Source of the DNA: a virus
Virus record (IMG/VR): IMGVR_UViG_3300030331_005816
Coordinates: 1 to 64,000 of that record
Strand: one strand, 5' to 3'
DNA length: 64,000 bases
The translations under genes were made by a program, and so were the position numbers. The notes under the pieces were generated by a model. It was not told where the DNA came from and searched no databases. It saw only the letters and a list, made by a program, of their open reading frames with translations. Positions 1 through 64,000 of this stretch are shown here, in pieces. Position 1 is the first letter of the stretch. Each line of letters begins with the position of its first letter.

Positions 1-2
1 GG

Positions 3-263
3 ATGTTAGAATGTCTGCCAATTTCAACTGATCAAGTTGATCCAATGTCTAGAGTTGACGAACAATTAAAAGATAAAATGATTGAAGATTTCCCGGGATT
101 TCCAGAAGAAGGTGCTACACTTGGTTTTGGTTACTGCCACATGTGGAAATTTAAATGTCACAGTGCCAGAGCATGCAATACTTGGGCTGGAGGAGGCCCA
201 ATTGATACTAATGAACAGTCTATAGAAACACAAACAGGTAAAAAACCAGACGATGACGAATAA
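3..263 (+). CDS. Hypothetical Cys/His-containing protein (probably 5'-truncated by window edge)
   Basis: GYCHMWKFKCHSARACNTW cluster suggests metal binding; stop overlaps next gene start. Confidence 0.6.
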   Translation: MLECLPISTDQVDPMSRVDEQLKDKMIEDFPGFPEEGATLGFGYCHMWKFKCHSARACNTWAGGGPIDTNEQSIETQTGKKPDDDE

Positions 264-792
264 CATAACAGAAGAAGAACTCAAAAAGATTATTGCTGAA
301 GAATTAAATGACACTCTTGTTCTTGTAGAAAAATGCTGGAAGGGTTATGAAAAGAAAGGCATGAAAAAGATGTTTGGAAAGATGTACCCAAACTGTGTTA
401 AAAAGAAAAAAGGTAAGAAACGAAAAAAACGTAAAAACGAAAGTGTTGATTTGTACGAAGCAGATCCAAAAAAAGGCACAGGTAAGAAACCCAAAGGCTC
501 AGGAAGAAGATTATACACAGATGAAAATCCCAGTGATACAGTATCTGTAAAATTTTCAACAGTGCAAGATATTAAGGATACTCTTTCTAAATCATCTTTC
601 AAATCAAAATCACATAAAAGACAGTCTCAAATTATTAACTTAATACATCAAAGAGCAAGAGCAGCTTATCAAAATGCTAAAGACCCAAAAGTTAAAGCAA
701 GACTTAAAAAATCTTTTGATTATGCAAAAAAAAGAAAAGAAGCATCAAAAAGAAAAACACAATCAATGAACAAGGCTAAAAAAGATGAGTAA
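253..792 (+). CDS. Basic, modular putative head-internal protein
   Basis: Lys-rich; CWKGY...PNCVK module and ADPKKGTGKKPKGSGRRLYTDENP module each preceded by L-x-E; N-terminal ITEEELKKIIAEEL. Confidence 0.65.
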   Translation: MTNNITEEELKKIIAEELNDTLVLVEKCWKGYEKKGMKKMFGKMYPNCVKKKKGKKRKKRKNESVDLYEADPKKGTGKKPKGSGRRLYTDENPSDTVSVKFSTVQDIKDTLSKSSFKSKSHKRQSQIINLIHQRARAAYQNAKDPKVKARLKKSFDYAKKRKEASKRKTQSMNKAKKDE

Positions 793-1030
793 ATATATGA
801 AAGATCCAGAGTATTTATTTTCTATACTTGCTGCAATAGTTAAGAAAAATGATGGATTCTTAAGACTTACTCAAGAGGAAATTGAAGCTGTCACTAAAAA
901 TGATATTATTGGTATGTATTTCGAGCCGGAAACAAATTCAATTGTTTTTAAAAAGGTTGATACAAAAGATGCTTTAGCTGCATCTAGCATGATTAAAAAT
1001 AGGCCCGAAACAACAACATACGATAATTAA
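785..1030 (+). CDS. Hypothetical protein
   Basis: ORF overlapping the upstream stop, tightly packed. Confidence 0.7.
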   Translation: MSKYMKDPEYLFSILAAIVKKNDGFLRLTQEEIEAVTKNDIIGMYFEPETNSIVFKKVDTKDALAASSMIKNRPETTTYDN

Positions 1031-1034
1031 TTGT

Positions 1035-1376
1035 ATGTACGAATACTCTTGTAAATTGATTCGAGTTATTGATGGCGATACTGTTGATGCACTTATTGAT
1101 TTGGGCTTTGATGTCTGGATTAAGAAAAGAATAAGATTATACGGCATTAACACTCCAGAAGTCCGCACTAGAGACATTTGGGAGAAGGAGCAGGGTCTAG
1201 CCAGCAAAAAGAGATTAGAAGAGCTTCTAGAGGGTGTAGACAACAAGTTTATATTAATTTCTAAAGGTGTCGGTAAATACGGAAGATGTCTGGGAGAACT
1301 ACTTATAGGTGAGTATGGAGAAGTACATATTAATAACTTACTTTTAAGTGAGGGTTTAGCGGAGAAATACGAATGA
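1035..1376 (+). CDS. Thermonuclease (SNase-family) nuclease
   Basis: VIDGDT, RIRLYGINTPE and GKYGRCL SNase motifs. Confidence 0.9.
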   Translation: MYEYSCKLIRVIDGDTVDALIDLGFDVWIKKRIRLYGINTPEVRTRDIWEKEQGLASKKRLEELLEGVDNKFILISKGVGKYGRCLGELLIGEYGEVHINNLLLSEGLAEKYE

Positions 1377-7714: not shown

Positions 7715-7923
7715 TGTGGAAAGTATATAAGTATGATGGAAATTACATTCAAGGTGAGCTTATAAGCAAACACACATCTGAAAATGCTGCTCTCAAGGCA
7801 GCTAAAAAGAGTATTGGTTATACTTTTTGTGAAAAAAAGAAAGTTAATAAAGAAATAAGAATTTGGCTTGATAGTGTAAATTATGCACCACTGGGTGTAA
7901 TTATAAAAAATACAAGGGGATGA
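7714..7923 (+). CDS. Hypothetical protein; stop codon lies inside tmRNA 5' end
   Basis: TAATG coupling; TGA at 7921-7923. Confidence 0.7.
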   Translation: MWKVYKYDGNYIQGELISKHTSENAALKAAKKSIGYTFCEKKKVNKEIRIWLDSVNYAPLGVIIKNTRG

Positions 7924-8257
7924 TTAGGTTTCGACAGGGCAAAAGAAAAGGAATAGTGCAAGCAGGTTAGATACGACCTTAACAGTTCAAATAATTTAGT
8001 TGCAAACAACAACTTACACTTCGACGAAACAGCTCGTTTAGCTGCTTAATCGGGAGGCTGATTAGAGCCTTCTATCCAATCTAATCAACACAACAGATAA
8101 GTTGCAAAAATCAAAACATTTATCATTAGTTTGATGGGCAATGATATCTTATTTCCATCTATCTTTGTCAGTTTATGATATAGAAACTGAATAAGCTTGT
8201 GAATGACTACAATTGGAATTGTTTTGGACGCGGGTTCGACTCCCGCCATCTCCACCA
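7916..8257 (+). ncRNA. ssrA: tmRNA
   Basis: Acceptor GGGGATG/CATCTCC with G3-U70, A discriminator, encoded CCA; TTCGAC after D-loop; T-arm GCGGG-TTCGACT-CCCGC; tag ORF 8002-8049 ANNNLHFDETARLAA*. Confidence 0.97.
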
Positions 8258-10928: not shown

Positions 10929-10934
10929 ATAAAT

Positions 10935-13038: not shown

Positions 13039-13684
13039 ATCGCAGACAAATTTTTACACCCCGTCTGGAATTCATATTTATATAAAAGAACCTGTAAATC
13101 AAACCGTTGTTAGTCGGGCCCTAAATATGTTAGAGCAGAGAGTACCGATCCATATACTATCTGAAGTAGAAATGATTATGTTTGGTTGGTTTGCTGAATT
13201 TGATGAACGAGGTCTACAGGCATATTTTGATGGTGGAACAATTTTTGTATCTAATCTCTTTGATGATGAGATAGAATTATTTGAAACTTTGATCCACGAA
13301 ACAGCACATGCAGTTGAAAAAACTTACGGCTATGAAATTTACGGTGATGATAAAATAAAACAGGAATTTATTAGAAAAAGACAATACCTTCATGACATTT
13401 TATGGAAAGAAGGCTACAAAATGCCAATATCTGTTTTTCTTGACACAGAATACGACCAAGAATTTGATGAAATGCTATATCAAAAAATTGGTTATGGTAA
13501 ACTCGATGGCTACGCTGCTGGCATTTTCATTACATCATATGGTGCCACTTCTTTAAGAGAATATTTTGCAACCGCATTTGATGATTACTTTATAAATCCC
13601 AACCATTCATTTTTAAAAAAGATTAGTCCTGCAGTTTATGAAAAAATAAATTTAGTTTTAAGTGAAGAAGAACTTGACATTTGA
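12998..13684 (+). CDS. Zincin-type metallopeptidase-like protein
   Basis: LIHETAHAVE (HExxH) and downstream YGATSLREYFA. Confidence 0.7.
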   Translation: MKTYIQQRQQKLRESQTNFYTPSGIHIYIKEPVNQTVVSRALNMLEQRVPIHILSEVEMIMFGWFAEFDERGLQAYFDGGTIFVSNLFDDEIELFETLIHETAHAVEKTYGYEIYGDDKIKQEFIRKRQYLHDILWKEGYKMPISVFLDTEYDQEFDEMLYQKIGYGKLDGYAAGIFITSYGATSLREYFATAFDDYFINPNHSFLKKISPAVYEKINLVLSEEELDI

Positions 13685-13701
13685 TTTCAAATGGTTATAA
13701 T
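13674..13701 (+). promoter_or_regulatory. Sigma70-type promoter upstream of nuclease/glycan operon
   Basis: Perfect TTGACA and TATAAT, 16 bp spacer. Confidence 0.7.
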
Positions 13702-13723
13702 ATAACTTAATATTGGAATATAT

Positions 13724-14485
13724 ATGAAACACATTTCCTATTCTGAATTAAAAGACTGGGCTCACTGCCCTTTCTATCACAAACTTACACGAATTGATGG
13801 AATCGATGGATTCACCGGAAACGAATACACCGCTTTCGGTTCTGCCATTCATTCTGTGTGTGAGAAAAAATTACTTAATGAAGAAGTGAAAGAAGATTTT
13901 TTTGTCCGTGAATTAAAAAAGAATATTTCTGAACTTGATGATGATGTAGATTTAAAGACAGTCCATCAGATGATGAAGCAGGGTAATAAAATCATCCCTG
14001 AAATTGATGATGCTTTGTCAGACTACTTTGACGAATATGAAGTACTGGCTGTTGAATTGCCACTATATGAGCCTATGAAAAATCAAAATTTTCGTTTTAA
14101 AGGTTACATCGATGCAGTTGTAGCAACACCAGACGGTAAAGTACATATTTTTGACTGGAAGACTTGTTCATGGGGTTGGGACTCACGAAAACGGAGTGAC
14201 AAAATGGTTACCTATCAATTGACTTTATATAAACACTTTTTCTGCCAGAAGATGTCAATTGAACCAAAAAATGTAGAAACACACTTTGCACTTCTTAAAA
14301 GAACAGCCAAAAATAATCATGTAGAATTTTTTAGAGTCACAAGTGGCCCAAAAAAGACAGAAAATGCACTTAAACTTTTAAATACTGCAATATACAATAT
14401 TGAAAACGAAAGGTATATTAAGAATCGTCTTTCGTGTACTTCCGGTTACGGATGTAAATTTTATAAGACAGAACACTGTCCATGA
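13724..14485 (+). CDS. PD-(D/E)XK exonuclease, Cas4/RecB-like
   Basis: ISYS...CP, FGSAIH, GYID, IFDWKT, QLTLY; 1+3 Cys Fe-S arrangement. Confidence 0.88.
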   Translation: MKHISYSELKDWAHCPFYHKLTRIDGIDGFTGNEYTAFGSAIHSVCEKKLLNEEVKEDFFVRELKKNISELDDDVDLKTVHQMMKQGNKIIPEIDDALSDYFDEYEVLAVELPLYEPMKNQNFRFKGYIDAVVATPDGKVHIFDWKTCSWGWDSRKRSDKMVTYQLTLYKHFFCQKMSIEPKNVETHFALLKRTAKNNHVEFFRVTSGPKKTENALKLLNTAIYNIENERYIKNRLSCTSGYGCKFYKTEHCP

Positions 14486-14492
14486 GGAATAA

Positions 14493-15776
14493 ATGAAAAA
14501 AACAAAAATTCTAACCTTGTCTGATCACCCGCTATCACCATCGGGTGTTGGTACACAAACAAGGTATTTTATCGAAGCACTTTTAAAAACTGGTAGATAT
14601 CAGTTTGTTTGCTTGGGTGGAGCAATGAAACACAATGATTATACCCCTACAAATGTTGAACCTTATGGGGAAGATTGGCAAATTATACCAGTTGATACAT
14701 ACGGAACACCTGATATTATTCGCTCTGTTTTACAAAACGAACGGCCAGATGTTTTGTGGTTCATGACAGATCCGCGGTTTTACGAGTGGTTGTGGGAAAT
14801 GGACAACGAAATTAGATCACTCGTGCCAATGGTATATTACCATGTGTGGGATAACTTTCCAGCACCTGAGTTTAACGGTAAGTGGTATCGTTCTACAGAC
14901 GAAATCGTAGCAATTTCAAAAGTAACATATGGTTGTGTTAAAGAAGTAGTGCCTGAAGCTTCATTAAATTATATCCCACATGCAGTTCCAACACAATTTT
15001 TTCACCCTGCTACAAGTAACGATGAAAAAAATAAAGCTGCAACTTTAAGAAATAATATAATCAATACATCAACTGAATTTAATAATCCAAAAAAGAAGAT
15101 ATTTTTCTGGAACAGTAGAAATGCAAGAAGAAAGTTAAGTGGTACACTTATTTGGTGGTTTAAAGAATTACTAGACGAAATCGGGCACGATAAAGCCTCG
15201 CTACTTATGCATACAGATGCTAGGGATCCACATGGCCAAGATCTGCCTCATATTATGGAAAGATTGGGTTTAACCGATGGTCAAGTGTTGTTATCAACGA
15301 ATAAAGTTAGCCCAGAAGAACTGGCACATATGTATCGTGCAGCCGACTACACTATTGGCATTAGCGATGCTGAAGGTTTTGGTTTATCAACACTTGAATC
15401 ATTAACATGCGGAACTCCAATTATTGCAAACATGACAGGCGGCCTTCAAGAGCAGGTAACTGATGGTACAAACTGGTTTGGCTGGGGCATTGAGCCTGTA
15501 AGTAAAACTGTCATTGGTTCTTTGCAAGTACCATATATCTATGAAGATAGAATCTCACAAAAAGATTTTAATGCAACAATTAAGAAAGCAATAAAATTAA
15601 GCAAACCAAAATATCAAAAGCTTTCAAAAATGTGCTTACAACATGTTAAGGATAATTATAGTTTTGAAAAATTTGAACAATCTTGGATTAATTTAATGGA
15701 TGAAATTGTAGAGAAACATGGTTCTTGGGAAACTAGAAAAAATTATGATCGTTGGACACTATTGGAGGTAGCATAA
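14493..15776 (+). CDS. GT-B glycosyltransferase (GT4-like)
   Basis: NARRK and EGFGLSTLE motifs. Confidence 0.9.
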   Translation: MKKTKILTLSDHPLSPSGVGTQTRYFIEALLKTGRYQFVCLGGAMKHNDYTPTNVEPYGEDWQIIPVDTYGTPDIIRSVLQNERPDVLWFMTDPRFYEWLWEMDNEIRSLVPMVYYHVWDNFPAPEFNGKWYRSTDEIVAISKVTYGCVKEVVPEASLNYIPHAVPTQFFHPATSNDEKNKAATLRNNIINTSTEFNNPKKKIFFWNSRNARRKLSGTLIWWFKELLDEIGHDKASLLMHTDARDPHGQDLPHIMERLGLTDGQVLLSTNKVSPEELAHMYRAADYTIGISDAEGFGLSTLESLTCGTPIIANMTGGLQEQVTDGTNWFGWGIEPVSKTVIGSLQVPYIYEDRISQKDFNATIKKAIKLSKPKYQKLSKMCLQHVKDNYSFEKFEQSWINLMDEIVEKHGSWETRKNYDRWTLLEVA

Positions 15777-17029
15777 TGCTTCAAAAAGTAATTTTAACAG
15801 CACCGGTATTAACTCGTTCAGGCTATGGTGAACAATCAAGATTCGCCTTAAGAGCACTTAGGTCGCGACCGGATTTATTTGATATTTATATTCATCCTTT
15901 AGAATGGGGTAAAACTTCTTGGCTTAGTGAAGATAATGAGGAAAGAAAATGGATTGATCAAACAATCCAAAAAACAATTGATTTTCTTCAAGTAAATAAC
16001 AGTGCAGATAATAACTTATTTGATGTATCACTACAGGTCACTATTCCAAATGAGTGGCAAAATATTGCTAATCACAATGTTGGTTATACTGCTGGCATTG
16101 AAACAACAAGGGTAGCACACGAATGGTTACAAAAAGGTAACGAAATGGATAGTATTATTGTTGTTTCTGAACACTCTAAGAATGTATATAGAAACACAGT
16201 TTATGATGCACACAATCAGCAAACAGGCGAAGACATTACATTATCATTGAACACTCAAATTTCTACAGTCAATTACCCTGTAAAAACATATGATAATTTA
16301 GAAGCTCTTGAGCTTAACTTAAAGCATGATTTTAATTTTGTTACCGTTGCACAAATGGGCCCAAGAAAAAACATCGATAATACCATTAATTGGTTTTTAC
16401 AAGAGTTCCACGACGATGAAGTTGGGTTAGTGGTAAAAACAAATGTTGCTAAAAATTGTCAAGTTGATAAAGAAATAGTTCACGGCTCATTAATGAGACT
16501 TATTAGAGCCCATGATGCCACTAATGAAAATAGAAAATGTAAACTTTATTTGCTTCACGGTGACTTAACTGACCAAGAAATGCACGAACTATATTTAAAC
16601 CCAAAAATTAAAGCGACTGTTTGTTTAACACACGGTGAAGGATTTGGTTTACCAATGTTTGAATCAGCTTACATGGGTGTTCCGGTTGTTGCTACAGATT
16701 GGTCGGGTCAGTTAGATTTCCTTTGTGATTCGGAAAAAAGAACAAAATTCTACAATGTTGGCTTTGATTTACAACCAGTTCCTGATCAAATATTGTGGGA
16801 TGGTGTAATTGTTAAGGGTTCAATGTGGGCAGTTCCAAGAGAAAACTCTGCAAAGTATAACATGAGGCTGTGCTATGATGAAGTTACCGAGGGGACTAAC
16901 AGTGCATGCGAATATTCAAAAGAACTTTGTGAGAGGTTTTCAGAAGATAAGATGTATGCAGCTTTTATTGAAGCTATGAATTTGCCAATTGTACAAACTC
17001 CAGAATCAGAATTGGTAGAATTTGAATGA
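15776..17029 (+). CDS. GT-B glycosyltransferase (GT4-like)
   Basis: SGYG, PRKN, GEGFGLPMFE; start moved to ATG 15776 (SD GGAGG). Confidence 0.9.
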   Translation: MLQKVILTAPVLTRSGYGEQSRFALRALRSRPDLFDIYIHPLEWGKTSWLSEDNEERKWIDQTIQKTIDFLQVNNSADNNLFDVSLQVTIPNEWQNIANHNVGYTAGIETTRVAHEWLQKGNEMDSIIVVSEHSKNVYRNTVYDAHNQQTGEDITLSLNTQISTVNYPVKTYDNLEALELNLKHDFNFVTVAQMGPRKNIDNTINWFLQEFHDDEVGLVVKTNVAKNCQVDKEIVHGSLMRLIRAHDATNENRKCKLYLLHGDLTDQEMHELYLNPKIKATVCLTHGEGFGLPMFESAYMGVPVVATDWSGQLDFLCDSEKRTKFYNVGFDLQPVPDQILWDGVIVKGSMWAVPRENSAKYNMRLCYDEVTEGTNSACEYSKELCERFSEDKMYAAFIEAMNLPIVQTPESELVEFE

Positions 17030-18639
17030 GTAAGTTAGTTTATGTCAGCGATTTTTTTGTTGAGCACATCGCCGGCGGTGCTGAGATAAACGATTCTATA
17101 TTATTAGAGAATCTATCAAAAGATATAAAAGTAGTCAAGTTTTTATCTCGTGAATTTACTAGCAAACATGTAAATTTATATCTTAAAAGTGGCTTTAAGT
17201 TTTTAATATCAAATTTTGCTACTCTTGATGTTAGCACAATGCAAGAGTTAGTAAATAATCCCAAGTGTTATTCCATAATCGAACACGACCACAAGTATTT
17301 AAAACATAGAAATCCATCAATATATAAAGATATGCTTGCACCACCGCAAGATATTATAAACAGAATACTGTATGCTAATGCCGCCTGTGTATTCGCACAG
17401 TCTAATATACACAAACAAGTTATTCAAAGAAACTTAAAAATTTCTAATGTCATAAATCTTGGCATGAGTTTGTGGTCAGATGAGCAATTATCGATAATTG
17501 AAAAAAACTACAGCGATGTAAAAAAACCGGGCTGTTCTATAGTAAACAGTCAAAATCCAACTAAAAATACAGCAGGAACAATTCAGTTCTGTGAAACCAA
17601 TAATATTGAATATAATTTAATTGGTTCTCCCTCTTACGAGGAGTTTATAAAACAACTATCTGAATACGAAAGATATGTTTACATGCCAATTGTTCTTGAA
17701 ACCTTTAACAGAGTTATAATTGAAGCTAGAATGTTGGGATGCAAAATCTCATCTACTAATTTAAATGGATGCTTTTCTGAAGATTGGTTTTCAAAGTACA
17801 AGGGCAAAGAACTAATTGAATATGTGAGACAGCAGCGACAAAGAGTTGTTAATGAAGTTGCTAGCGGTATATTTGATGATTCAGATACCAAAGAAAAATC
17901 AGACATTACAGTTATTTTGAACGGGTATAGAAGGCCATATAATCTTAAAATGCAAGTTGATGCATTAAGAAGCCAAACAAACCCTCCAAAGCAAATTTGG
18001 CTGTGGATTAATGATCATGAAGACAATCATGGTTTTGATTTTGAATCTATTGGAGTAGATAGAATATTTCATAATGATTATAATTGGAAGTTCTATGGCC
18101 GCTTTGCAGCAGCACTTTTAGCAGACACCGAGTATATTGCAATCTATGATGATGATACTGTGCCCGGCAAAAGGTGGCATGAGAATTGCTTAAAAACAAT
18201 GAAGACTCATGAGGGTATTCTTGGTTCTGCCGGCATCATACTCAATGGTTCACGATATGTGCAACACGACAGGTGCGGCTGGCCAACACAAAATTCAACC
18301 ACAACTGAAGTTGATTTAGTTGGCCATGCTTGGTTTTTTAAACGAGAGTGGTTACGATATCTCTGGCAAGAAAAACCTGTCACTTGGGATAATGGAGAAG
18401 ATATCCAATTTGCTTTTATGGCAAAAATCCATGGGGGTATACCAACATATTGTCCGCCACATCCGCCCGAAGACATTGATTTGCATGGTTCTATACTTGG
18501 GAATGAATTAGGTATAGACAATAAAGCAACATCAACCAATTCTGCTGTTTCGCATCAACAATTTTTCTCCGAAAGAGATATGTGTGTGCAAACAGGACTA
18601 CAAAAAGGCTGGAAAACAGTCAATAATATAACATTATGA
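17026..18639 (+). CDS. Bifunctional glycosyltransferase (GT-B plus GT-A/GT2-like)
   Basis: GGAE and ETFNRVIIEARMLG, then ITVILNGYRR and AIYDDD, GEDI. Confidence 0.8.
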   Translation: MSKLVYVSDFFVEHIAGGAEINDSILLENLSKDIKVVKFLSREFTSKHVNLYLKSGFKFLISNFATLDVSTMQELVNNPKCYSIIEHDHKYLKHRNPSIYKDMLAPPQDIINRILYANAACVFAQSNIHKQVIQRNLKISNVINLGMSLWSDEQLSIIEKNYSDVKKPGCSIVNSQNPTKNTAGTIQFCETNNIEYNLIGSPSYEEFIKQLSEYERYVYMPIVLETFNRVIIEARMLGCKISSTNLNGCFSEDWFSKYKGKELIEYVRQQRQRVVNEVASGIFDDSDTKEKSDITVILNGYRRPYNLKMQVDALRSQTNPPKQIWLWINDHEDNHGFDFESIGVDRIFHNDYNWKFYGRFAAALLADTEYIAIYDDDTVPGKRWHENCLKTMKTHEGILGSAGIILNGSRYVQHDRCGWPTQNSTTTEVDLVGHAWFFKREWLRYLWQEKPVTWDNGEDIQFAFMAKIHGGIPTYCPPHPPEDIDLHGSILGNELGIDNKATSTNSAVSHQQFFSERDMCVQTGLQKGWKTVNNITL

Positions 18640-19622
18640 TACTGATTAGTTTTGGAACTCGACCTGAGTTTATTAAAATAAAGCCTCTTATCGAGGCATT
18701 TAAAGATAGGATACCTTTCAAGTTACTTTTTACTGGTCAACATGTTGATCTGTTATCCGATGTAGAGGGCGACATTCACAAGCTGACGATCGAAGATGGG
18801 TCAAATAGGCTTGATTCAATTGTCTCCTCAATGATGAACAACGATGCTATTTTTGAAGGTGTGGAAGCAGTGTTGGTTCAGGGTGATACAACATCAGTTT
18901 TTGCTGTTGCATTGGCCGCATTTCATAGAAGAATAAAAATTATACACCTTGAGGCTGGATTAAGAACATTCAACAAAGATCATCCATACCCTGAAGAGTT
19001 TAATCGTCGTGCGGTCTCTGTCATGGCTGATATCCATCTATCGCCAACAGAACTTTGCACTGAAAACCTTAATAAAGAAAGAGTCGATGGAAAGATTTTT
19101 ACAGTCGGCAATACTGTACTGGATAATTTGGTAGATATACAACCCGAATACACAAACAAAGTTGTCATTACAATGCACCGAAGAGAAAACCATCACATTA
19201 TACCAGAATGGTTTGCTGCATTTGATAGACTTGCACTTGAAAATCCACAGTATGAATTTATTATTCCTTTGCACCCTAATCCAAATGTTCAAAAGCACAA
19301 AGACTTGTTAAAGCATGTCAAAGTTGTTGATCCTATGCAATATGCAGAGTTTATTAAGTTACTATCACAAGCTCGTTTAGTTATTACAGATAGTGGTGGA
19401 CTGCAAGAAGAATCTTCGTTCTTTAAGAAAAAGTGTATAGTGTGTAGACAGGCTACAGAAAGAGTTGAAGGTATGGGAACATTTGCATTTATGTCATCAC
19501 CAGATAAAGTAGAGAGCGATTTTTATTCTATGATTGATGATTATATTCCCGATGATACATGTCCTTATGGAGATGGTCACAGTGCAGAAAGAATTACAAA
19601 CATTCTTTTAGAGGAATTATGA
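18636..19622 (+). CDS. wecB: UDP-N-acetylglucosamine 2-epimerase
   Basis: GTRPE, TGQH, VQGDT, HLEAGLRT, PEEFNR, HRRE, TDSGGLQEE, YGDG. Confidence 0.95.
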   Translation: MILISFGTRPEFIKIKPLIEAFKDRIPFKLLFTGQHVDLLSDVEGDIHKLTIEDGSNRLDSIVSSMMNNDAIFEGVEAVLVQGDTTSVFAVALAAFHRRIKIIHLEAGLRTFNKDHPYPEEFNRRAVSVMADIHLSPTELCTENLNKERVDGKIFTVGNTVLDNLVDIQPEYTNKVVITMHRRENHHIIPEWFAAFDRLALENPQYEFIIPLHPNPNVQKHKDLLKHVKVVDPMQYAEFIKLLSQARLVITDSGGLQEESSFFKKKCIVCRQATERVEGMGTFAFMSSPDKVESDFYSMIDDYIPDDTCPYGDGHSAERITNILLEEL

Positions 19623-20422
19623 AAGACTTTACCAATGCCTTTAATACTCTGCTGCACAAGCTAGAAAATAAAGAAAATTTTGCTTTTACTAGGTTTTCTG
19701 ATGGTGAGCTTTTTATCTTGCAAAATAAAACAGTCATACTAGCCGAGGACCATTATGTAACCGGTGATGTTAAGGGGCCTAATGTTTACACTAAAGAAGA
19801 ACAAAAAGAATTCTTACCTGAACAACATGGCTTTTTTCGTGACAAGCTGATGGAATGCTATCTTCACAATCAAGATAATTTTTACAAAGGCATATGCACA
19901 GGAACCGATCCTCATGTTGGAAATGAAAATTTTAAATGGATGATAGAGCAACACGGTGGCGATCACGAGAATTTAACATTTTCTAATCTTTTAATAAATG
20001 CAAATTATAAAAGATTCATTGAAGAAATGGTACCCATGTTGGTTGACAGAAATGTAATTTATGTTGCAAATGAGAATGCAAATATATCAAAACTACCGTT
20101 TGATGTAGAAAAGCATTTCATTGTTGGTTCAAATTGTATGATAAATGATTATAATTTAGCTGAAGAAATAAAAAAATATATTGACGATAACAACCTGAAA
20201 GATTATATTGTTCTATGTTCTGCTGCTAGTTTAAGCAATGTCGTGACTTACGAGTGTTTTAAGGATAATCCAAATAATACATTTCTTGATATTGGAAGCT
20301 GTTTAAATCCATTGCTAGATCTAGAAGGGTGGAAATATACCAGAGGTTATCTAACCAGCTATTGGCTTAATTCTGATAGCCCATTTGGCACACAGATAGA
20401 TGTATGGCAGAGTACAGATTAG
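19619..20422 (+). CDS. GT-D fold-like (DUF1792-type) glycosyltransferase
   Basis: FAFTRFSDGE and LDIGS motifs; start moved to ATG 19619. Confidence 0.6.
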   Translation: MKDFTNAFNTLLHKLENKENFAFTRFSDGELFILQNKTVILAEDHYVTGDVKGPNVYTKEEQKEFLPEQHGFFRDKLMECYLHNQDNFYKGICTGTDPHVGNENFKWMIEQHGGDHENLTFSNLLINANYKRFIEEMVPMLVDRNVIYVANENANISKLPFDVEKHFIVGSNCMINDYNLAEEIKKYIDDNNLKDYIVLCSAASLSNVVTYECFKDNPNNTFLDIGSCLNPLLDLEGWKYTRGYLTSYWLNSDSPFGTQIDVWQSTD

Positions 20423-20805
20423 TAAATAACAACCCTTCTTACTGGGAATTTATTCGTGAGCTAAGGACCATGGAAGGTGTTCGAGAAGGATTTATTTCAC
20501 AAACTGAAATTACTCCCATTGAGCAAGCTACTTATATGCTAAAATATAATTCTAACTATTGGATATGTTTGGATGACAAAACACCTGCAGGTTATGTTGG
20601 AGTAATAGACGATGATATTAGGGTAGCAACTCACCCAGACTATCAAGGCAAAGGTGTTGGAACATTTATGATTAATGAAATTATGAAACTAATACCAACA
20701 GCGATAGCAAGAGTTAAATTAGATAATGAAGCTAGTGTAAAACTATTTGAAAGATGTGGCTTTAAAAAGAAATACTATATTTTGGAAAGAGATAATGAGA
20801 CATAA
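20404..20805 (+). CDS. GNAT acetyltransferase
   Basis: HPDYQGKGVG and NEASVKLFERCGF. Confidence 0.9.
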   Translation: MAEYRLVNNNPSYWEFIRELRTMEGVREGFISQTEITPIEQATYMLKYNSNYWICLDDKTPAGYVGVIDDDIRVATHPDYQGKGVGTFMINEIMKLIPTAIARVKLDNEASVKLFERCGFKKKYYILERDNET

Positions 20806-21409
20806 CCCATATAAAATTGTAAAAATGTTTGAAGAGACCGTAGCTGACTATTGTGGCTCTAAGTATGCAGTATCGACTGACAATTGCACTGATGCTCTTC
20901 TTTTATGTTGTGAGTACTTGAGGGTGAAGGAAGTTGTAATCCCGGCTAAAACATACCTGTCGGTCCCGCAATCTATCATGCATGCGGGCGGAACTGTAAA
21001 GTTTAAAGACTACAGGTGGAAAGGTATATATCAACTTGAGCCATATCCAATTTATGATGCAGCTAAAAGATTTACAAGTGATATGTATATTCCTGACTCT
21101 TTTATGTGTTTATCGTTCCATATCAAAAAGCATTTGAAGATTGGAAAGGGCGGTATGATTCTTACCGACGATGCTGATGCTGCAGCATGGTTTAGAAAAG
21201 GTCGTTATGAAGGCCGCGGTGAAGTTATGTATCATGAAGATAACATACAGATTAACGGATGGAATGCATACATGACTCCTGAGCAAGCAGCCCGCGGCTT
21301 GATGTTAATGCAAAACTACCCAGATCATATGGAAGATTTGCCTGAAGAACCGTTCTACAGAGATTTGAGAGAATTTGACTTGTTTAAGGATGTAGAGGTT
21401 GTAGAATGA
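20795..21409 (+). CDS. Short DegT/DnrJ/EryC1/StrS sugar aminotransferase
   Basis: YAVSTDNCTDAL, YDAA, SFHIKK, GGMILT, GWNAYM; start moved to ATG 20795; only 204 aa. Confidence 0.85.
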   Translation: MRHNPYKIVKMFEETVADYCGSKYAVSTDNCTDALLLCCEYLRVKEVVIPAKTYLSVPQSIMHAGGTVKFKDYRWKGIYQLEPYPIYDAAKRFTSDMYIPDSFMCLSFHIKKHLKIGKGGMILTDDADAAAWFRKGRYEGRGEVMYHEDNIQINGWNAYMTPEQAARGLMLMQNYPDHMEDLPEEPFYRDLREFDLFKDVEVVE

Positions 21410-22236
21410 AGATTGCACTGTGCTTACATGGCTACTTTGCTAATGCAGAGGGGTATGAAGAATCTGTTGAGGCTCACAAATACTTAAAAAGAAAAGTACT
21501 TGATGGCAATGATGTAGATGTTTTTATACACAGTTGGGATCTTGAAAACGAAAAAAAAGTGTTATCGTTATATAATCCAAAAAAGTATAATTTTGAAAAG
21601 CAATTAGATTTTAAACAAGAATTAAAAAAAATTGATATTAACAATGATGAATATAAAAGCTCATATGGTAATACTGTATTTAGAACATTGAGTTTTTTAT
21701 ATTCAAGAATGATGGCCGTGAAAATCAAAAGTGATTATGAAGAAGAAAAAAAATTCAAATATGATTGTGTAATATTAGCAAGATTTGATATATCAAGAAG
21801 AGGATTAAAACATATACAAACACATTATGTTTCACGAATGAATTTTGATCCGAAATTAGATATGGATTTTGTTTATTCTGCATATTGGGATCAATTAAAT
21901 CATGGATATGCAGACCACTGGTTCTATTCATGTTCTGAAAACATTGACACTGTTGCAAATTTATATTATGATGTCTTTGAGTATTATCAATCAAATAGTG
22001 ATTATGTAAAATCGGTCACTGAAGGGTGGCCTGAAAGCAATGCTGAACATGAATTTTCCAATGAGTACATGAAACCTAAAAAATATAAAGCCAAAAAATT
22101 AATATTTTGGGAGAAGTCAAGTTGTATTGACAATCATAAATTATACAAATGGCATTTTATGAAAACTGGTTTACATCAAAAGTCTAAATTTGTTGATATT
22201 ACAACTGATACTGATAAGCCAAGGATTATGAATTAA
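21406..22236 (+). CDS. Putative glycosyltransferase
   Basis: MKIALCLHG, DVFIHSW, YDCVILARFD pattern typical of glycan-cluster proteins. Confidence 0.55.
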   Translation: MKIALCLHGYFANAEGYEESVEAHKYLKRKVLDGNDVDVFIHSWDLENEKKVLSLYNPKKYNFEKQLDFKQELKKIDINNDEYKSSYGNTVFRTLSFLYSRMMAVKIKSDYEEEKKFKYDCVILARFDISRRGLKHIQTHYVSRMNFDPKLDMDFVYSAYWDQLNHGYADHWFYSCSENIDTVANLYYDVFEYYQSNSDYVKSVTEGWPESNAEHEFSNEYMKPKKYKAKKLIFWEKSSCIDNHKLYKWHFMKTGLHQKSKFVDITTDTDKPRIMN

Positions 22237-22239
22237 TCT

Positions 22240-22965
22240 ATGAATAAAGAAACCGCCATTATTATGTACAGTCACAGCAGTTACTCTGATGTATGGGGTA
22301 TGTTTATGGGACAAATTGATAAGTATTTTTCTAATGATGTAAAAAAATATGTATTTGTTGATGATGATAAGGGTCTTATTGACAATAATTGGAACATAGT
22401 TTTATATGATGATTCTATGTCGTATGATGTTAGATTTAGTACATGTTTAGAAAGTGTAAAAGAGCAGTATTGTATCCTTCACCATGAAGATATGCCCTTA
22501 ATAACTAAACCAGATATTGAAGAATTGCAACGATGTCACGGAATATTAAAAAATGAACCAGAGTTAGATTATATAAAGCTGATTAAGGGTGGAGAAGTTA
22601 GAGATATACCATATAAAGAATACAAAAACTTATATGACATACCACACAATTCTAAATGCATATTTGCCGTGCAGCCGACCATATGGAAAACTAATAAATT
22701 AAAAATTGTTTACAATAACACAAAAACAAATCATATTAGAGAATTTGAACCCAAAAGCCAAACTACTTGTGTTGAAAATTCGATACATGGAGCTTATTAT
22801 TTCAATTCTGAAGTTGATTTGAAAAGAGGCAGTGATCATTATAATTCATCAATTTATCCATATGTTGCCACGGCCATAGTAAAGGGAAGATGGAATTTAG
22901 CTGAGTATTATGTTGAGATATCAAACTTGGCTAGAGAATATAAAGTTAATCTTGGAGATAGATAA
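22240..22965 (+). CDS. Putative GT-A-like glycosyltransferase
   Basis: SYSDVW, ILHHED, QPTIW, AIVKGRW; cluster context. Confidence 0.5.
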   Translation: MNKETAIIMYSHSSYSDVWGMFMGQIDKYFSNDVKKYVFVDDDKGLIDNNWNIVLYDDSMSYDVRFSTCLESVKEQYCILHHEDMPLITKPDIEELQRCHGILKNEPELDYIKLIKGGEVRDIPYKEYKNLYDIPHNSKCIFAVQPTIWKTNKLKIVYNNTKTNHIREFEPKSQTTCVENSIHGAYYFNSEVDLKRGSDHYNSSIYPYVATAIVKGRWNLAEYYVEISNLAREYKVNLGDR

Positions 22966-23489
22966 TGATTAAATTAGTGATATTAGATGTTGATGGTGTA
23001 ATGACAGATGGTCGCAAATACTATGATCACACTGGCATGCCCGTTGCAAAGACTTATTGTGACAAAGATTTCACTGCTATTAAAAGACTTCGCGGAGCAG
23101 GAGTGAAAGTTTGTATTCTGTCAGGAGATGATTTTGTCAACAAAGCTATGGCTCATAATAGAAATATAGATTTTTATTCTGCTAGAGGTAAAGATAAGGC
23201 TTCTTTTATTCCTCACTTTATTGACAATTATGATGTTGATGCGGAAGATATGGCATACATCGGCGATGACTTATTTGATAAAAGTGTGATGGAAGCTGTT
23301 GGTCATGCATTTTGCCCGGCAGATGCCTGTGCAGATATCGTTGAGTTATGCGGACCCTCAAACACATTGCCACAAAATGGTGGCTGCAATGTAGTTGCTG
23401 GCATGGTTAATACCATGCTGAAGAGAGGCTTGATACCAGATGCCACAATGAAACAAATTGAAGAGTTAGATAAAAACGAGAGGTTTTAG
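22965..23489 (+). CDS. KdsC-like HAD phosphatase
   Basis: LDVDGVMTDG, YIGDDLFD, PADA. Confidence 0.88.
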   Translation: MIKLVILDVDGVMTDGRKYYDHTGMPVAKTYCDKDFTAIKRLRGAGVKVCILSGDDFVNKAMAHNRNIDFYSARGKDKASFIPHFIDNYDVDAEDMAYIGDDLFDKSVMEAVGHAFCPADACADIVELCGPSNTLPQNGGCNVVAGMVNTMLKRGLIPDATMKQIEELDKNERF

Positions 23490-24370
23490 TGAGCTTTGAT
23501 TTAACAGTCTACGGTAATCTAATATTAGATAATACATTCTGTGTAGAACAATATGCTCATGAAGAATCAAATATTTGTACAGCACGGCACATGTCTCCGG
23601 GTGCTTCTGCAAATGTGGTGAGTGCAATTAGCAGGCTTGATTCTGCTTTGAGTGTTAATATCAGTTCAATAATTGGCGATGACACTGCCGGACGGTATAT
23701 AGAGAAATGGTTTTTAAATTTTAAAAAACTTAACTCAATTAACTTAAATTTAAATTTAGAAAAAAGCTATCAAAACACATCTGAGGCAGTGATTATTTCA
23801 GACCTGACTAATAAGTCCAGAAGCAGCATTGTAAATTGGGGTGCCTGTCAAACACTAAGAAACTTAAAAAACTTTAACTCTAAGTGGTCTCATATACTTT
23901 ATCTTGACAAGCTACCTAATTTAGATTTAAACAGTTTAAAAAAATTATCAGAAGAAAGTATAATATCTGTAGACTTGTGTTCCTCTAATCAAGATTTAGA
24001 AACAAGAGAGACGATGATTTCCATGTTGCCATATATTGATTATGTATTTGCTTCGTTTGAAGAGGGTTGTTGTTTAGCACAAGAAAATAATCCTTATGAT
24101 GCATCTCGCTTTATTGCTAAAAAAACAAGAGGCTGGTGTATTCTACACTCTCCAGATGGTAGTTACATATCAGAAGGCAGCCATCAAACAACAAAAAAAT
24201 ACAATGTCGCTGACAAAGTAACAGGGCCGGTCAATGTTTTAGGTGCTGGCGACAACCTTGCTACTGCTTTTATTGTTGACCAGATTAAAAGACAAAGCGA
24301 AGTAAGCGAGTCAATTAAGTTTGCACAAACACAAGCAACCGAATATATTAAAAATAACCAAAAGGAATAA
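23489..24370 (+). CDS. PfkB-family carbohydrate kinase
   Basis: GASANV, IGDDTAG, NVLGAGD. Confidence 0.85.
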   Translation: MSFDLTVYGNLILDNTFCVEQYAHEESNICTARHMSPGASANVVSAISRLDSALSVNISSIIGDDTAGRYIEKWFLNFKKLNSINLNLNLEKSYQNTSEAVIISDLTNKSRSSIVNWGACQTLRNLKNFNSKWSHILYLDKLPNLDLNSLKKLSEESIISVDLCSSNQDLETRETMISMLPYIDYVFASFEEGCCLAQENNPYDASRFIAKKTRGWCILHSPDGSYISEGSHQTTKKYNVADKVTGPVNVLGAGDNLATAFIVDQIKRQSEVSESIKFAQTQATEYIKNNQKE

Positions 24371-24371
24371 A

Positions 24372-25532: not shown

Positions 25533-25533
25533 A

Positions 25534-26650: not shown

Positions 26651-26652
26651 TT

Positions 26653-27420: not shown

Positions 27421-27421
27421 C

Positions 27422-28039: not shown

Positions 28040-28040
28040 T

Positions 28041-30156: not shown

Positions 30157-30176
30157 AATATACCAAAGGAGAAAAA

Positions 30177-30386
30177 ATGCAACTTTCAAATCAAGCACTC
30201 GGTGCAATCATGTTGGCTCTTCAAGAATCGCTACTTGAACAAACCGACATTGTTCCTGTACTTAAAGGTTTTACACTTCAAGAATCCGGCGAAGGGTTAA
30301 TTATCACAAACCCTCCAACAGTCAGATTCACCGATAATACTGAAGTTACCAACCAAGATTTAGAAAATATGGTAGCAGATAAGTAA
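30177..30386 (+). CDS. Hypothetical protein
   Basis: SD AGGAG before ATG 30177. Confidence 0.7.
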   Translation: MQLSNQALGAIMLALQESLLEQTDIVPVLKGFTLQESGEGLIITNPPTVRFTDNTEVTNQDLENMVADK

Positions 30387-61612: not shown

Positions 61613-61641
61613 ATTAATAATTATTATGGAGGCATAAAACG

Positions 61642-62220
61642 ATGTTTAAAATACCTTTTCAGGTTTCACAAATTAAAAAACAGCCAAAGCTTTATACAAA
61701 AAATAAAAACAAGTTTATATTAGGCGATAAAATTGTTAATAAAAATACCGATCCAACATTATTCAATGTACAAAATGCTGCACTAGCTGTCCAGCATATG
61801 TCTGGCACACCATCGTCTGCCAGACCCACCACTCACTCCACGACAACAGATATAGAAGCAATCTCTGTTGAAACTTTAATTCAGATGAATGTGGGCATTA
61901 GTGGTTTAAAAAAAGATTTCTCTTTACTAGAAGATAATAACCCTCAAATCGATTTGTCAAATCCAAGCATTATAGCTCAAAAAGAATTAGATAATGTAAG
62001 TAACGACCTAATCAAGCCAAGCGGATTTGATTTAGCTAATGATCCTATTTATGAACTTGATGCTGCTAAAGTGTCTGCAGCAAATATTAATGATTTGCAA
62101 GATGCTAGAGATTTTTTTGCACCCGTTGATCCATCTCAAATACTCTCTGGTTTAAATATTATGAATCAAAGTTCAGAGTATTTTGGTAGAAATAAGTACT
62201 ACGAAAAATTTGGGAGATAA
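61642..62220 (+). CDS. Hypothetical protein
   Basis: SD GGAGG; ATAATTA motif 18 nt upstream. Confidence 0.7.
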   Translation: MFKIPFQVSQIKKQPKLYTKNKNKFILGDKIVNKNTDPTLFNVQNAALAVQHMSGTPSSARPTTHSTTTDIEAISVETLIQMNVGISGLKKDFSLLEDNNPQIDLSNPSIIAQKELDNVSNDLIKPSGFDLANDPIYELDAAKVSAANINDLQDARDFFAPVDPSQILSGLNIMNQSSEYFGRNKYYEKFGR

Positions 62221-62223
62221 TAA

Positions 62224-63051
62224 ATGCCAACTCTTGAAAATATATTATTAAAAATTGACGAGCAAGATAGCACACATATAGACAAAATTATTGATTTTAC
62301 TGATGAAAACAAACTAGAAGTAGAAGATTTAACCAAAATAGTCTCCTCTGGTGATAATACACAATTATTATTAGGAACATCAATTGAAACTGACGGGCAA
62401 GTTATAGATACTGACTCATTTGTGAGTTCACTTTACAATTCTGGTCTAATTGGCCAACAATTTACCGGTGACGGCGGTATAAGTGAGGAACAATATGCAA
62501 TTTACTCAAGCACTTTAAATAATAGTATTGGGCTTGTCTTAGTTTTAATGGAGCAGTCCCGTAAACTTAGCAGCGGTTACACAACCACTGAATTGGTCCC
62601 TGTGTTTGCACACACAGCTAACGATGCATTAAATGATCCATCTTTTAATGCAACATTTGATTTTGGCGAGCAGAGTGAAGACACATCATTGCCTACCAAT
62701 TATATATCTTATGAGCCGTATGGAAGTGAAGCTTACAATAATTCTGAATATCTTGCACTTAGAGGTAAGTTTGGATATGAAGAATTAACAACAAGCAATG
62801 TTGTTCTGGCCCCTTTTAATGAGGCATATGCTAGAATGACACAAGATGTTGACAAACTTGCTTTGGACATAGCATCTGGAATCCTAACATCAAAAGACAT
62901 CATAAAAACAACTAATAAGTTAGAATTAACAGATAATCTGTTGCAGGAAATAACTCAAGATGAAGTTTCAAGCACAAGAGCAAGCCTAGAATCATCGAGT
63001 CCAAATACATCAGCAACTACTGTTTCCGTCCCAACCGGAGTATCATATTAA
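62224..63051 (+). CDS. Hypothetical acidic protein
   Basis: ORF in gene train. Confidence 0.7.
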   Translation: MPTLENILLKIDEQDSTHIDKIIDFTDENKLEVEDLTKIVSSGDNTQLLLGTSIETDGQVIDTDSFVSSLYNSGLIGQQFTGDGGISEEQYAIYSSTLNNSIGLVLVLMEQSRKLSSGYTTTELVPVFAHTANDALNDPSFNATFDFGEQSEDTSLPTNYISYEPYGSEAYNNSEYLALRGKFGYEELTTSNVVLAPFNEAYARMTQDVDKLALDIASGILTSKDIIKTTNKLELTDNLLQEITQDEVSSTRASLESSSPNTSATTVSVPTGVSY

Positions 63052-64000
63052 TGAGTGTCGATTTAGAACAAATTCAAATTTATATTGACTCAATATCACA
63101 ATATCCAACACAAGAATATGGTGGTAAATTTACTAGTCTAGTTGATGTCAATTTATTTTCCGGCTCTAATGATCTGTTTAGAAACTCAGTTGGTGGATAT
63201 TTTTTTAATTCTATAGATGATGCACAACAATTAAAAGTACCACCAAATTTTAAAAAATTTCTATACTTTGATAATATTAATCCACAAATATATTCTATTA
63301 ATTCTTACAAGGGCGAAAGAATCAACAGTAATATTGAGTTTGTCCAATCTGGCATGGATCGCAGCGAATCTAGCTCTGGTGCTAGCTTAATACAAAACAA
63401 GGGTGTTGCAAGTCAAGATACAATATTACCTTCCGTAAAATTTGTTTGTCAAGTTGAGGGCGATCCTAGAAATGAATTTTTGCAAGATCCCGTTGTTGGA
63501 AATAAATATTGGGAAAAATTATTCACTGGTGGTCAATTTAACGGCCAGAATATTGAACCAATATACTCAACTGAGTCATTTGATTCACACTATACAACGA
63601 TTAACATGCCGTATGATAAAATTGATTTTAAAACTTTAAAAAATGGCTCAGCAGTTGATAGATATACACAAGTTTCATATGAATATAATACTTATAATCA
63701 ATTATATCAAGACTTTGTCAGATCACTAAGCTCTGAAAAGCAAAATATAAATTGGTATTTATTAAACATGTATTCATTAAACTTTTCAATTGATGTCCAC
63801 ACTAAATCACACTATGGATTTTCCTCAACAGAAGAACCAATAAAACTTTTTAATGAAAATACTGAACAATATTTACTCAATGTCAGAGAAAATATTTTAA
63901 ATTCAGGGCCGACACAATCTTCTGAGTTTGAAAAAAGGCAAACAAATCTAATATTCAACAGTAACTCAATCCGTGAATTATTAAAGCCAGATACACCTGC
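63051..64000 (+). CDS. Hypothetical protein, runs off window end (not in ORF track)
   Basis: TAATG-coupled start MSVDLEQIQIYIDSISQY...; frame open as far as translated by hand. Confidence 0.7.
   Translation, partial: MSVDLEQIQIYIDSISQYPTQEYGGKFTSLVDVNLFSGSNDLFRNSVGGYFFNSIDDAQQLKVPPNFKKFLYFDNINPQIYSINSYKGERINSNIEFVQSGMDRSESSSGASLIQNKGVASQDTILPSVKFVCQVEGDPRNEFLQDPVVGNKYWEKLFTGGQFNGQNIEPIYSTESFDSHYTTINMPYDKIDFKTLKNGSAVDRYTQVSYEYNTYNQLYQDFVRSLSSEKQNINWYLLNMYSLNFSIDVHTKSHYGFSSTEEPIKLFNENTEQYLLNVRENILNSGPTQSSEFEKRQTNLIFNSNSIRELLKPDTP

What the first reader, a model, noticed from the sequence alone, without database searches (positions are those of the whole stretch)
1..64000. RCGY tetranucleotides (ACGT, ACGC, GCGT, GCGC) almost eliminated
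Seen: reading every CG context I found about 27 RCGY sites among roughly a thousand CG dinucleotides, where about a quarter would be expected; none between about 13,520 and 30,960. RCGR, YCGY and YCGR are common, so this is not general CpG depletion. Three survivors sit in RNA elements (tmRNA 8228; 10935; 10982). Inference: long-term pressure from a host or phage C5-methyltransferase or restriction system of RCGY specificity. Established: the methyl-directed endonuclease GlaI cuts R(5mC)GY.
Basis: partly seen in the sequence, partly recalled or inferred. Interest (0 to 1): 0.75.

Follow-up and report, generated by a model that had tools for sequence, protein, structure and literature searches.

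The report
Phage purged of its own restriction site
A marine T4-like phage has lost over 90% of the four-letter DNA word RCGY, most likely because its lineage carries its own DNA-cutting and DNA-methylating enzyme pair aimed at that word, so the genome has evolved to avoid being cut by the phage's own weapon.

Summary
Synonymous-codon shuffling expects 313±15 and finds 28 (z −19), with depletion in all three codon frames.

The cause is lineage-specific. The 91%-identical sibling G001 (130.7 kb) has 18 RCGY among 3232 CpG. The syntenic complete relative G003 (187 kb) has 1182 among 5718, which is normal. The depleted lineage differs from G003 by a 2-kb insertion next to the DnaE polymerase gene. 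The insertion holds a C5 cytosine methyltransferase and an unannotated 286-aa protein that folds as restriction endonuclease HinP1I (Z 17.4).

Every contig carrying this gene pair is RCGY-depleted (28 loci, median 5.9% of CpG). None of 150 polymerase-anchored loci without it is depleted (16.6–31%).

Codon-frame patterns point to selection against the site rather than 5mC deamination. The module is not on the window's own contig, so its presence there is inferred. RCGY specificity is also inferred; it is supported by a giant-virus preprint that found 5mC at RCGY next to a HinP1I-like nuclease.

This scan had already found the same purge with a fused form of the enzyme in giant viruses. This is the first phage case seen here, with the two genes separate.

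The parts
1..64000 (.). Window-wide depletion of RCGY: 27 sites among 1293 CpG, about 9% of the codon-corrected expectation.
13513..30965 (.). A 17.4-kb stretch with no RCGY at all. It covers the glycosyltransferase-rich gene block.
   Evidence: neighbouring sites at 13512 and 30966.
50200..51450 (+). Undepleted patch inside the 3895-aa ORF (44783-56470). Here 8 of 31 CpG are RCGY (26%), against 0 of 102 and 1 of 95 in the flanking parts of the same ORF. Read as a recently imported, not yet purged mosaic segment.
   Evidence: Fisher p 4e-8.
49790..52204 (+). Segment of the giant ORF with no DNA match to sibling G001, although the surrounding DNA is about 92% identical upstream and 71-77% identical downstream. 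It contains the undepleted patch. The closest protein relatives in IMG/VR are only 30-36% identical.
429..432 (.). Surviving ACGT kept in both G000 and G001. It is one of 7 shared survivors: 429, 5948, 10982, 30966, 35165 in the window, and 71920 and 71929 beyond it. Four of the five in-window sites are nnR|CGT Arg-codon junctions; 10982 is intergenic.
7916..8257 (+). Phage tmRNA gene holding survivor ACGC at 8228. This site is private to G000; G001 has ACCC there.

Best explanation
The window belongs to a marine T4-like myovirus lineage that carries its own Type II restriction-modification module. The module is a C5 cytosine methyltransferase followed by a small HinP1I-fold endonuclease, inserted next to the DnaE-type polymerase gene. 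The pair most likely recognises RCGY: the methylase makes R(5mC)GY and the nuclease cuts unmethylated RCGY.

The nuclease is made inside cells where phage DNA is replicating fast, so any site left unmethylated is a liability. Selection has therefore removed about 90-98% of RCGY sites by whatever synonymous change was available. The few that remain are protected by the methylase.

What is shown: the depletion; its restriction to module-bearing lineages; the fold and conservation of the two genes; and the selection-type codon pattern.

What is inferred: that G000 itself carries the module; that the specificity is RCGY; that the nuclease is active; and what it is used for (degrading host or rival-phage DNA is a guess).
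For: 1. The depletion survives codon correction, and the sister genome does not show it. G000 has 28 against 313 expected. G001 has 15 against 660 (ratio 0.023). The module-free, syntenic sister G003 has 1110 against 1276 (0.87).

2. A C5 methyltransferase (PF00145, E 2e-34) lies at the end of G001. None is found in the complete relatives G002 and G003.

3. In G005 and L126 the methyltransferase is followed by a 286-292-aa ORF, 861 bp from its most likely ATG, which overlaps the methyltransferase's end by 11 bp. Together the two genes form a roughly 2.05-kb insertion between two genes that are about 64 bp apart in G003.

4. The ORF models at pLDDT 91.9. Its best fold matches are HinP1I (Foldseek E 9.8e-10; VIA Z 17.4, rmsd 2.6 A, 206 residues aligned) and then MspI (Z 12.4); the next match scores 7.1. 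Profile relatives of the ORF reach Pfam R-HINP1I.

5. The family has invariant K59, D61, S73, K75 and Q85. Within the lineage dN/dS is 0.11-0.16 for the nuclease and 0.06-0.07 for the methylase.

6. The two genes are adjacent in all 9 IMG/VR loci and in 39 of 47 metagenome loci, in either gene order. Seven of the other eight contigs are about 2 kb or shorter; in the eighth the nuclease lies at the contig edge.

7. RCGY as a share of CpG has median 0.059 (range 0-0.143) in 28 module loci, against median 0.223 (0.165-0.297) in 69 control loci. The ranges do not overlap (Mann-Whitney p 1.5e-14).

8. Of 151 loci anchored on the neighbouring polymerase gene, the 150 without the module have 0.166-0.310. 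The one with it has 0.003.

9. Within the polymerase gene alone, the module-bearing lineage has 0-2 RCGY, while seven orthologues 87-91% identical in protein have 38-46 each.

10. The pattern is one of selection. In G001 nnR|CGY is 6 against 148 expected, while nnY|CGY is 333 against 191. In the polymerase gene the six frame-2 sites that were lost all went by flank changes. Frame-0 sites split 4 transitions to 4 transversions.

11. The purge is still going on. Since G000 and G001 split (91% identity), they gained 8 and 1 private RCGY sites, against 95-191 private sites for each other CpG class.

12. External support: in the giant virus ChlorV-1, nanopore sequencing shows 5mC at RCGY. A strain-specific C5 methylase there sits next to a protein whose best structural hit is also HinP1I 2fkc (bioRxiv 10.1101/2025.11.19.688996, text and supplement file 10).
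Against: 1. The module is not on the window's contig. G000 ends about 55 kb short of the locus, so its presence in this phage is inferred from a 91%-identical sibling.

2. G000 has 30 sites where the homologous part of G001 has 8. G000 may therefore be under weaker pressure, or may have lost the module recently.

3. No enzyme activity, cleavage site or methylation has been measured for this family. RCGY specificity rests on the depletion itself plus one preprint about a virus whose sequences I could not compare.

4. Contigs sharing the module are not phylogenetically independent, so the p-values overstate the evidence.

5. Some module-bearing groups are only mildly depleted, and more at ACGT than at GCGC. 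That could mean different specificities or simply younger acquisitions.
Confidence: 0.72

Rival explanations
1. Classical anti-restriction avoidance: the host encodes one RCGY enzyme, or several cutting ACGT, GCGC and ACGC/GCGT, and the phage has purged the sites to escape it. On this view the phage-borne module is incidental, or was captured later.
For: Site avoidance against host enzymes is common in phages. This same genome also lacks CCWGG and CAGCTG entirely. Those two avoidances are shared with the module-free relative G003, so host-driven avoidance probably does operate in this clade.
Against: RCGY depletion tracks the module, not the phage backbone. Relatives with 87-91% identical polymerase, and the syntenic G003, presumably infect similar hosts yet are undepleted. 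Different backbones that carry the module (CCWGG present, different GC content) are depleted. No relative of the nuclease was found in 185,579 prokaryote species genomes.
Confidence: 0.1
2. Mutational decay: the phage methylase makes 5mC at RCGY, and spontaneous deamination (5mC to T) erodes the sites without any selection by a nuclease.
For: A C5 methylase is present in the lineage. Many lost sites are now RTGY or RCAY: 23 of 38 in the polymerase gene. RTGY density is higher in G001 than in G003, 15.5 against 13.7 per kb.
Against: C>T is the only synonymous exit at NAC|GYN junctions, so those transitions are expected under selection too. Where deamination products would change the protein (nnR|CGY), depletion is just as strong (6 against 148 expected), and it was achieved by flank transversions that keep the CG. 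Frame-0 losses are half transversions. A 40-fold depletion is far beyond what I know of for 5mC target sites in bacteria (own knowledge). The nuclease gene is under purifying selection.
Confidence: 0.1
3. Methyl-directed attack: because the phage methylates RCGY, hosts with Type IV or GlaI-like nucleases that cut R(5mC)GY select for fewer methylated sites.
For: GlaI-type enzymes that cut R(5mC)GY exist (PMC7604892). The phage lineage is predicted to carry 5mC at exactly these sites.
Against: No such host enzyme was found or could be looked for, because the host is unknown. Under this pressure, losing the methylase would be a simpler escape.
Confidence: 0.05

Closest known systems
ChlorV-1_078 / ChlorV-1_079 of Chlorarachniophyte virus 1 (bioRxiv 10.1101/2025.11.19.688996)
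   Same: It is a marine virus with a strain-specific C5 methyltransferase whose best solved match is M.HaeIII. The neighbouring 'hypothetical protein' has HinP1I (2fkc) as its best structural hit and MspI as its second, the same ranking as here. The measured 5mC motif is RCGY.
   Different: It is a giant virus of a eukaryotic alga, not a phage. The paper reports frequent 5mC and does not mention any depletion of RCGY.
HinP1I restriction endonuclease (G^CGC; PDB 1YNM, 2FKC) and MspI (C^CGG)
   Same: The fold matches over almost the whole protein (Z 17.4 and 12.4). The size fits a small monomer. The catalytic-type motif D-X11-S-x-K has the same spacing as HhaI's SD-X11-EAK (PMC7026639). GCGC is one of the four RCGY words.
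   Different: Sequence identity is only 11-12%. The protein gives no direct Pfam R-HINP1I hit. The predicted specificity is degenerate at the outer positions (R/Y instead of G/C). The carrier is a virus, whereas characterised members come from bacteria.
Fused HinP1I-like nuclease plus C5 methylase of giant viruses, noted earlier in this scan (e1-5501895, e1-5548971)
   Same: The two domains and the RCGY purge of the carrier genome are the same. A fused 668-aa relative (P0161) has a methylase half 45% identical to the phage methylase across the whole length, including the target-recognition region, and a homologous nuclease half.
   Different: Here the two activities are separate, slightly overlapping genes in a T4-like phage. 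I could not confirm that P0161 is one of the giant-virus proteins from those notes.
Restriction-site avoidance in genomes that carry the cognate R-M system (Gelfand and Koonin 1997; Rocha et al. 2001, cited in PMC4176335)
   Same: A short palindromic target is under-represented in the genome that encodes the enzyme.
   Different: The carrier is a virulent-type phage. Complete R-M systems are rare in phages: 9 in 831 genomes (PMC4176335). To my knowledge the depletion here (O/E 0.02-0.09) is far deeper than is usual in bacteria.

Membership tests
Type II restriction-modification system | A DNA methyltransferase with the conserved C5 motifs | tested here: met
   PF00145 matches at E 2e-34 to 4e-48. 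The complete 365-aa copy L126:8506-9603 shows FxGxG, PCQ, ENV, RxR and the C-terminal motifs. The best solved relatives are M.HaeIII and M.HhaI.
Type II restriction-modification system | A cognate endonuclease with a nuclease fold, genetically linked to the methylase | tested here: met
   The fold is that of HinP1I/MspI. The genes are adjacent in 9 of 9 viral loci and 39 of 47 metagenome loci, in either gene order.
Type II restriction-modification system | Both enzymes act on the same sequence: the nuclease cuts it and methylation blocks cutting | not testable with these tools
   This needs enzyme assays. The only evidence here is indirect: the RCGY purge and the ChlorV-1 methylome.
R.HinP1I family (Pfam PF11463) | Match to the family profile above the curated cut-off | tested here: not met
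   The phage protein gives no Pfam hit at E<=0.1. Profile relatives P0141, P0098 and P0102 do pass PF11463 at 26-31 bits against a cut-off of 25. The protein is therefore a distant relative, not a member by Pfam's own test.
R.HinP1I family (Pfam PF11463) | HinP1I/MspI monomeric two-sheet fold with a D...x-K catalytic motif | tested here: met
   Z 17.4, rmsd 2.6 A, 206 of 241 residues aligned. D61, S73 and K75 are invariant. No residue-by-residue superposition was available.
Restriction-site avoidance | Target word far below expectation after composition and codon correction, and specific to lineages exposed to the enzyme | tested here: met
ChlorV-1-type RCGY system | 5mC at RCGY in the virion DNA | not testable with these tools
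   No candidate gene was seen in the phage contigs, and the host is unknown.

The most novel reading that the evidence does not exclude
This unannotated HinP1I-fold nuclease and its methylase may form a mobile RCGY 'weapon cassette' that moves between unrelated marine viruses (giant viruses and T4-like phages). The carrier would use it offensively, to shred host and rival-virus DNA. Self would then be told from non-self mainly by the scarcity of sites in the carrier's genome, with methylation needed only for the last few dozen sites. If so, the nuclease would be the first R^CGY-type restriction enzyme, and the degree of purge would date each acquisition.
Probability: 0.3. Interest if true: 0.8.

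Novelty: new variant of a known kind. Interest (0 to 1): 0.62.

Why it matters
- It gives a clean natural experiment in how fast and by what routes a genome can erase a four-base word. The nearest undepleted relatives share 87-91% identical proteins. A recently imported, still undepleted patch acts as an internal clock.
- It shows that complete restriction systems, rare in phages, can reshape a virulent-type phage's own genome.
- It points to an unannotated enzyme family (277 clusters at 50% identity) whose predicted degenerate four-base specificity, RCGY, is one I know of no characterised restriction enzyme having. That could be useful as a CpG-context cutter.
- It links phages and giant viruses of the same waters through a shared module.

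Tried and rejected
- Megablast of 20 kb of the window against GenBank phages gave no match. The closest cultured relatives (cyanophages, pelagiphage HTVC008M, Methylophilales phages) are at most 39% identical in one protein, so the host stays unknown.
- Substitution spectra against relatives about 76% identical in DNA are near saturation and did not separate deamination from selection. The codon-frame argument was used instead.
- A donor for the undepleted patch was sought in IMG/VR; only 30-36% identical relatives turned up.
- The scan of prokaryote genomes for the nuclease found nothing. It used only two peptide patterns, so distant bacterial relatives are not excluded. Profile relatives that hit Pfam R-HINP1I may be bacterial.
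- The cluster look-up gave no informative names or accessions.
I therefore could not look for the module in the sample that holds G000, nor lay reads.
- The two HinP1I structure papers (PMC1074309, PMC1363774) are not held. HinP1I catalytic residue numbers were not checked and are not used.
- Folding and a permissive Rfam search of 10800-11300 gave no RNA family around sites 10935 and 10982 (fold z -1.5).
- No complex prediction was run.
Full report
**Observation**

The window holds 1293 CpG. Only 27 are RCGY (ACGT 11, ACGC 7, GCGT 3, GCGC 6), against 520 RCGR, 337 YCGY and 409 YCGR. None lies between 13512 and 30966. The whole contig, G000, is 73,723 bp and has 30 sites.

Under an order-2 Markov model the four RCGY tetramers are the four lowest of all 256 (O/E 0.14-0.18). 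Shuffling synonymous codons within each of 71 ORFs keeps protein sequence and codon usage fixed. It expects 312.8±14.8 sites and finds 28 (z −19), with depletion in every codon frame.

**What the DNA is**

- The contig carries a tmRNA and two tRNAs.
- It also carries PhoH, glycosyltransferases, an HNH endonuclease, UvdE and a primase.
- Its relatives are marine IMG/VR contigs of up to 195 kb.
- Three of those relatives (G001, G002, G003) encode a T4-type Gp23 capsid protein.
- Cultured phages are distant: at most 39% identity in one protein to cyanophages, pelagiphage HTVC008M and Methylophilales phages. The host is unknown.

**The depletion is lineage-specific**

Among 80 loci sharing the DUF6267 gene, the RCGY share of CpG is bimodal. 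About ten close relatives (81-91% protein identity in that gene) sit near 1%, except L002 at 4.6%. All others, including relatives at 84%, 82% and 81% identity, sit at 17-30%.

| Genome | Relation to G000 | RCGY / CpG | Coding RCGY, observed vs codon-shuffle expectation |
|---|---|---|---|
| G001 (130.7 kb) | 91% identical in DNA | 18 / 3232 | 15 vs 660 |
| G003 (187 kb, complete) | syntenic relative | 1182 / 5718 | 1110 vs 1276 |

**What distinguishes the depleted lineage**

A search for C5 methyltransferases found one at the very end of G001 and none in the complete genomes G002 and G003.

Full copies lie in G005 and, without gaps, in L126. There the methylase (L126:8506-9603, 365 aa) is followed by a 286-292-aa ORF, 861 bp from its most likely ATG (L126:9593-10453), which overlaps the methylase's end by 11 bp. 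The DnaE-type polymerase gene comes next. Against G003, the two genes form a roughly 2.05-kb insertion between neighbours that are only about 64 bp apart.

The second ORF has no Pfam or PDB sequence match. It belongs to a conserved family with invariant K59, D61, S73, K75 and Q85 and a GPLTLQMKGSG block. Its AlphaFold model (pLDDT 91.9) gives these fold matches:

- HinP1I: Foldseek E 9.8e-10; VIA-align Z 17.4, rmsd 2.6 Å, 206 residues aligned.
- MspI: Z 12.4.
- Next best match: Z 7.1.

A full profile search finds 277 clusters. Some of them pass Pfam R-HINP1I. One (P0161, 668 aa) is the nuclease fused to a C5 methylase that is 45% identical to the phage methylase along its whole length.

Both phage genes are under purifying selection within the lineage: dN/dS is 0.11-0.16 for the nuclease and 0.06-0.07 for the methylase. 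Taken together this is a Type II restriction-modification pair.

**Association with the purge**

- All 9 IMG/VR loci with the nuclease have the methylase beside it, in either gene order.
- So do 39 of 47 metagenome loci. Seven of the other eight contigs are about 2 kb or shorter; in the eighth the nuclease lies at the contig edge.
- In 28 module loci with at least 100 CpG, the RCGY share has median 0.059 (range 0-0.143). In 69 control loci it has median 0.223 (range 0.165-0.297). The ranges do not overlap (Mann-Whitney p 1.5e-14). Related contigs are not independent, so this p-value is generous.
- A cleaner design anchors loci on the neighbouring polymerase gene, so that the insertion site is covered. 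Of 151 such loci, the 150 without the module have 0.166-0.310. The one with it has 0.003.
- Inside the 3.4-kb polymerase gene itself, module carriers have 0-2 RCGY. Seven orthologues with 87-91% identical protein have 38-46 each.
- No relative of the nuclease was found in 185,579 prokaryote species genomes, at the limited sensitivity of that scan.

**Selection or deamination?**

At NAC|GYN junctions the only synonymous change is C>T, so transitions there are uninformative. The informative frame is nnR|CGY, where deamination would give Cys or His.

- In G001 these sites are 6 against 148 expected, while nnY|CGY is 333 against 191. CGY arginine codons are mostly kept (8.2 per 1000 codons in G001 against 14.2 in G003), and the base before them has been switched.
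- In the polymerase gene the six frame-2 sites that were lost all went by flank changes.
- Frame-0 sites split 4 transitions to 4 transversions.

This is the signature of selection against the word, with deamination at most a contributor.

The purge is also continuing. Since G000 and G001 diverged they gained 8 and 1 private RCGY sites, against 95-191 private sites for each other CpG class.

**The survivors**

Seven sites are shared by G000 and G001 (five in the window; four of those are nnR|CGT Arg-codon junctions and 10982 is intergenic), which suggests constraint.

Eight others lie within 50200-51450, in the 3895-aa ORF. There RCGY is 26% of CpG, against 0 of 102 and 1 of 95 in the flanks (Fisher p 4e-8). 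This patch sits in the only stretch of that region with no DNA match to G001 and has no close relative in IMG/VR. I read it as a recently imported mosaic piece that has not yet been purged.

**Specificity**

RCGY specificity is inferred from the depletion. All three word classes are depleted in every module group, ACGT most strongly.

Independent support comes from a preprint on the marine giant virus ChlorV-1. Nanopore data there show 5mC at RCGY. A strain-specific C5 methylase sits beside a 'hypothetical protein' whose best structural hits are HinP1I 2fkc and then MspI (10.1101/2025.11.19.688996, main text and supplement file 10). The paper does not mention depletion. I could not align those proteins with the phage pair.

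**Relation to earlier work in this scan**

After I had reached this reading, the scan's notes showed that the same purge, with a fused HinP1I-like/C5-methylase enzyme, had already been reported in freshwater giant viruses. The present case extends it to a T4-like phage with the two genes separate.

**Weak points**

- The module is not on G000. The contig stops about 55 kb short of the locus, so its presence in this phage is inferred from the sibling and from the ongoing purge.
- G000 has 30 sites where G001 has 8 over the same stretch.
- No biochemical data exist for this family.

**Verdict**

- The best explanation is self-avoidance of a phage-encoded RCGY restriction-modification module, at confidence about 0.7.

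Noticed in passing
window 1-64000 (whole contig G000): CCWGG is completely absent (about 48 sites expected) and so is CAGCTG (about 12 expected). The module-free relative G003 also has only 6 CCWGG and 0 CAGCTG in 187 kb. These avoidances are therefore older, shared by a wider clade, and have a different cause, perhaps host enzymes. G003 carries an N4/N6 methylase and a Dam-like gene at about 66.4-67.6 kb.
   Followed up: partly
G002, G003, G005, L126:10512-13946: These phages have a T4-type Gp23 capsid. The two complete genomes (G002, G003) show no family-B DNA polymerase (PF00136). Instead they carry an approximately 1150-aa DnaE-type Pol III alpha with a PHP domain.
   Followed up: partly
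window 7916-8257: A one-piece tmRNA gene in a phage (Rfam 122 bits), with predicted tag peptide ANNNLHFDETARLAA. It is flanked by tRNA-Asn (10288-10363) and tRNA-Thr (11206-11281).
   Followed up: no
window 34476-40955, 44783-56470, 57530-61612: Three giant ORFs of 2159, 3895 and 1360 aa. DNA identity to sibling G001 falls from about 92% to 70-77% or nothing from 49.8 kb onward, which suggests a fast-evolving, mosaic host-recognition region.
   Followed up: partly
window 14493-30156: A long co-directional block rich in glycosyltransferases (GT1, GT2 and GT4 'conflict-system' family hits). It holds no RCGY at all. Other first-stage notes cover this island.
   Followed up: no
P0102 (1299 aa), P0098 (359 aa), P0059 (1099 aa): Relatives of the nuclease occur in odd fusions. 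One follows RNA-polymerase Rpb1 domains that hold an intein with a LAGLIDADG domain. Another follows NUMOD4 and HNH_3 homing-endonuclease modules. A third sits at the start of a 1099-aa protein with no other Pfam hit. These may be gene-calling run-ons or real mobile-element fusions.
   Followed up: no
L095 (G007:9503-11754): A viral contig with two tandem C5 methylases (38-40% identical to the G006 copy of the module methylase), no nuclease relative, and normal RCGY content (21%). It is a possible methylase-only comparison case of unknown specificity.
   Followed up: partly
window 9483-10019: An HNH homing-type endonuclease gene (PHROG hits to 2.9e-35) lies among the tRNA and tmRNA genes. The G000-G001 alignment is broken near 5.4-5.7 kb and 11.0 kb, which hints at other mobile insertions.
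   Followed up: no
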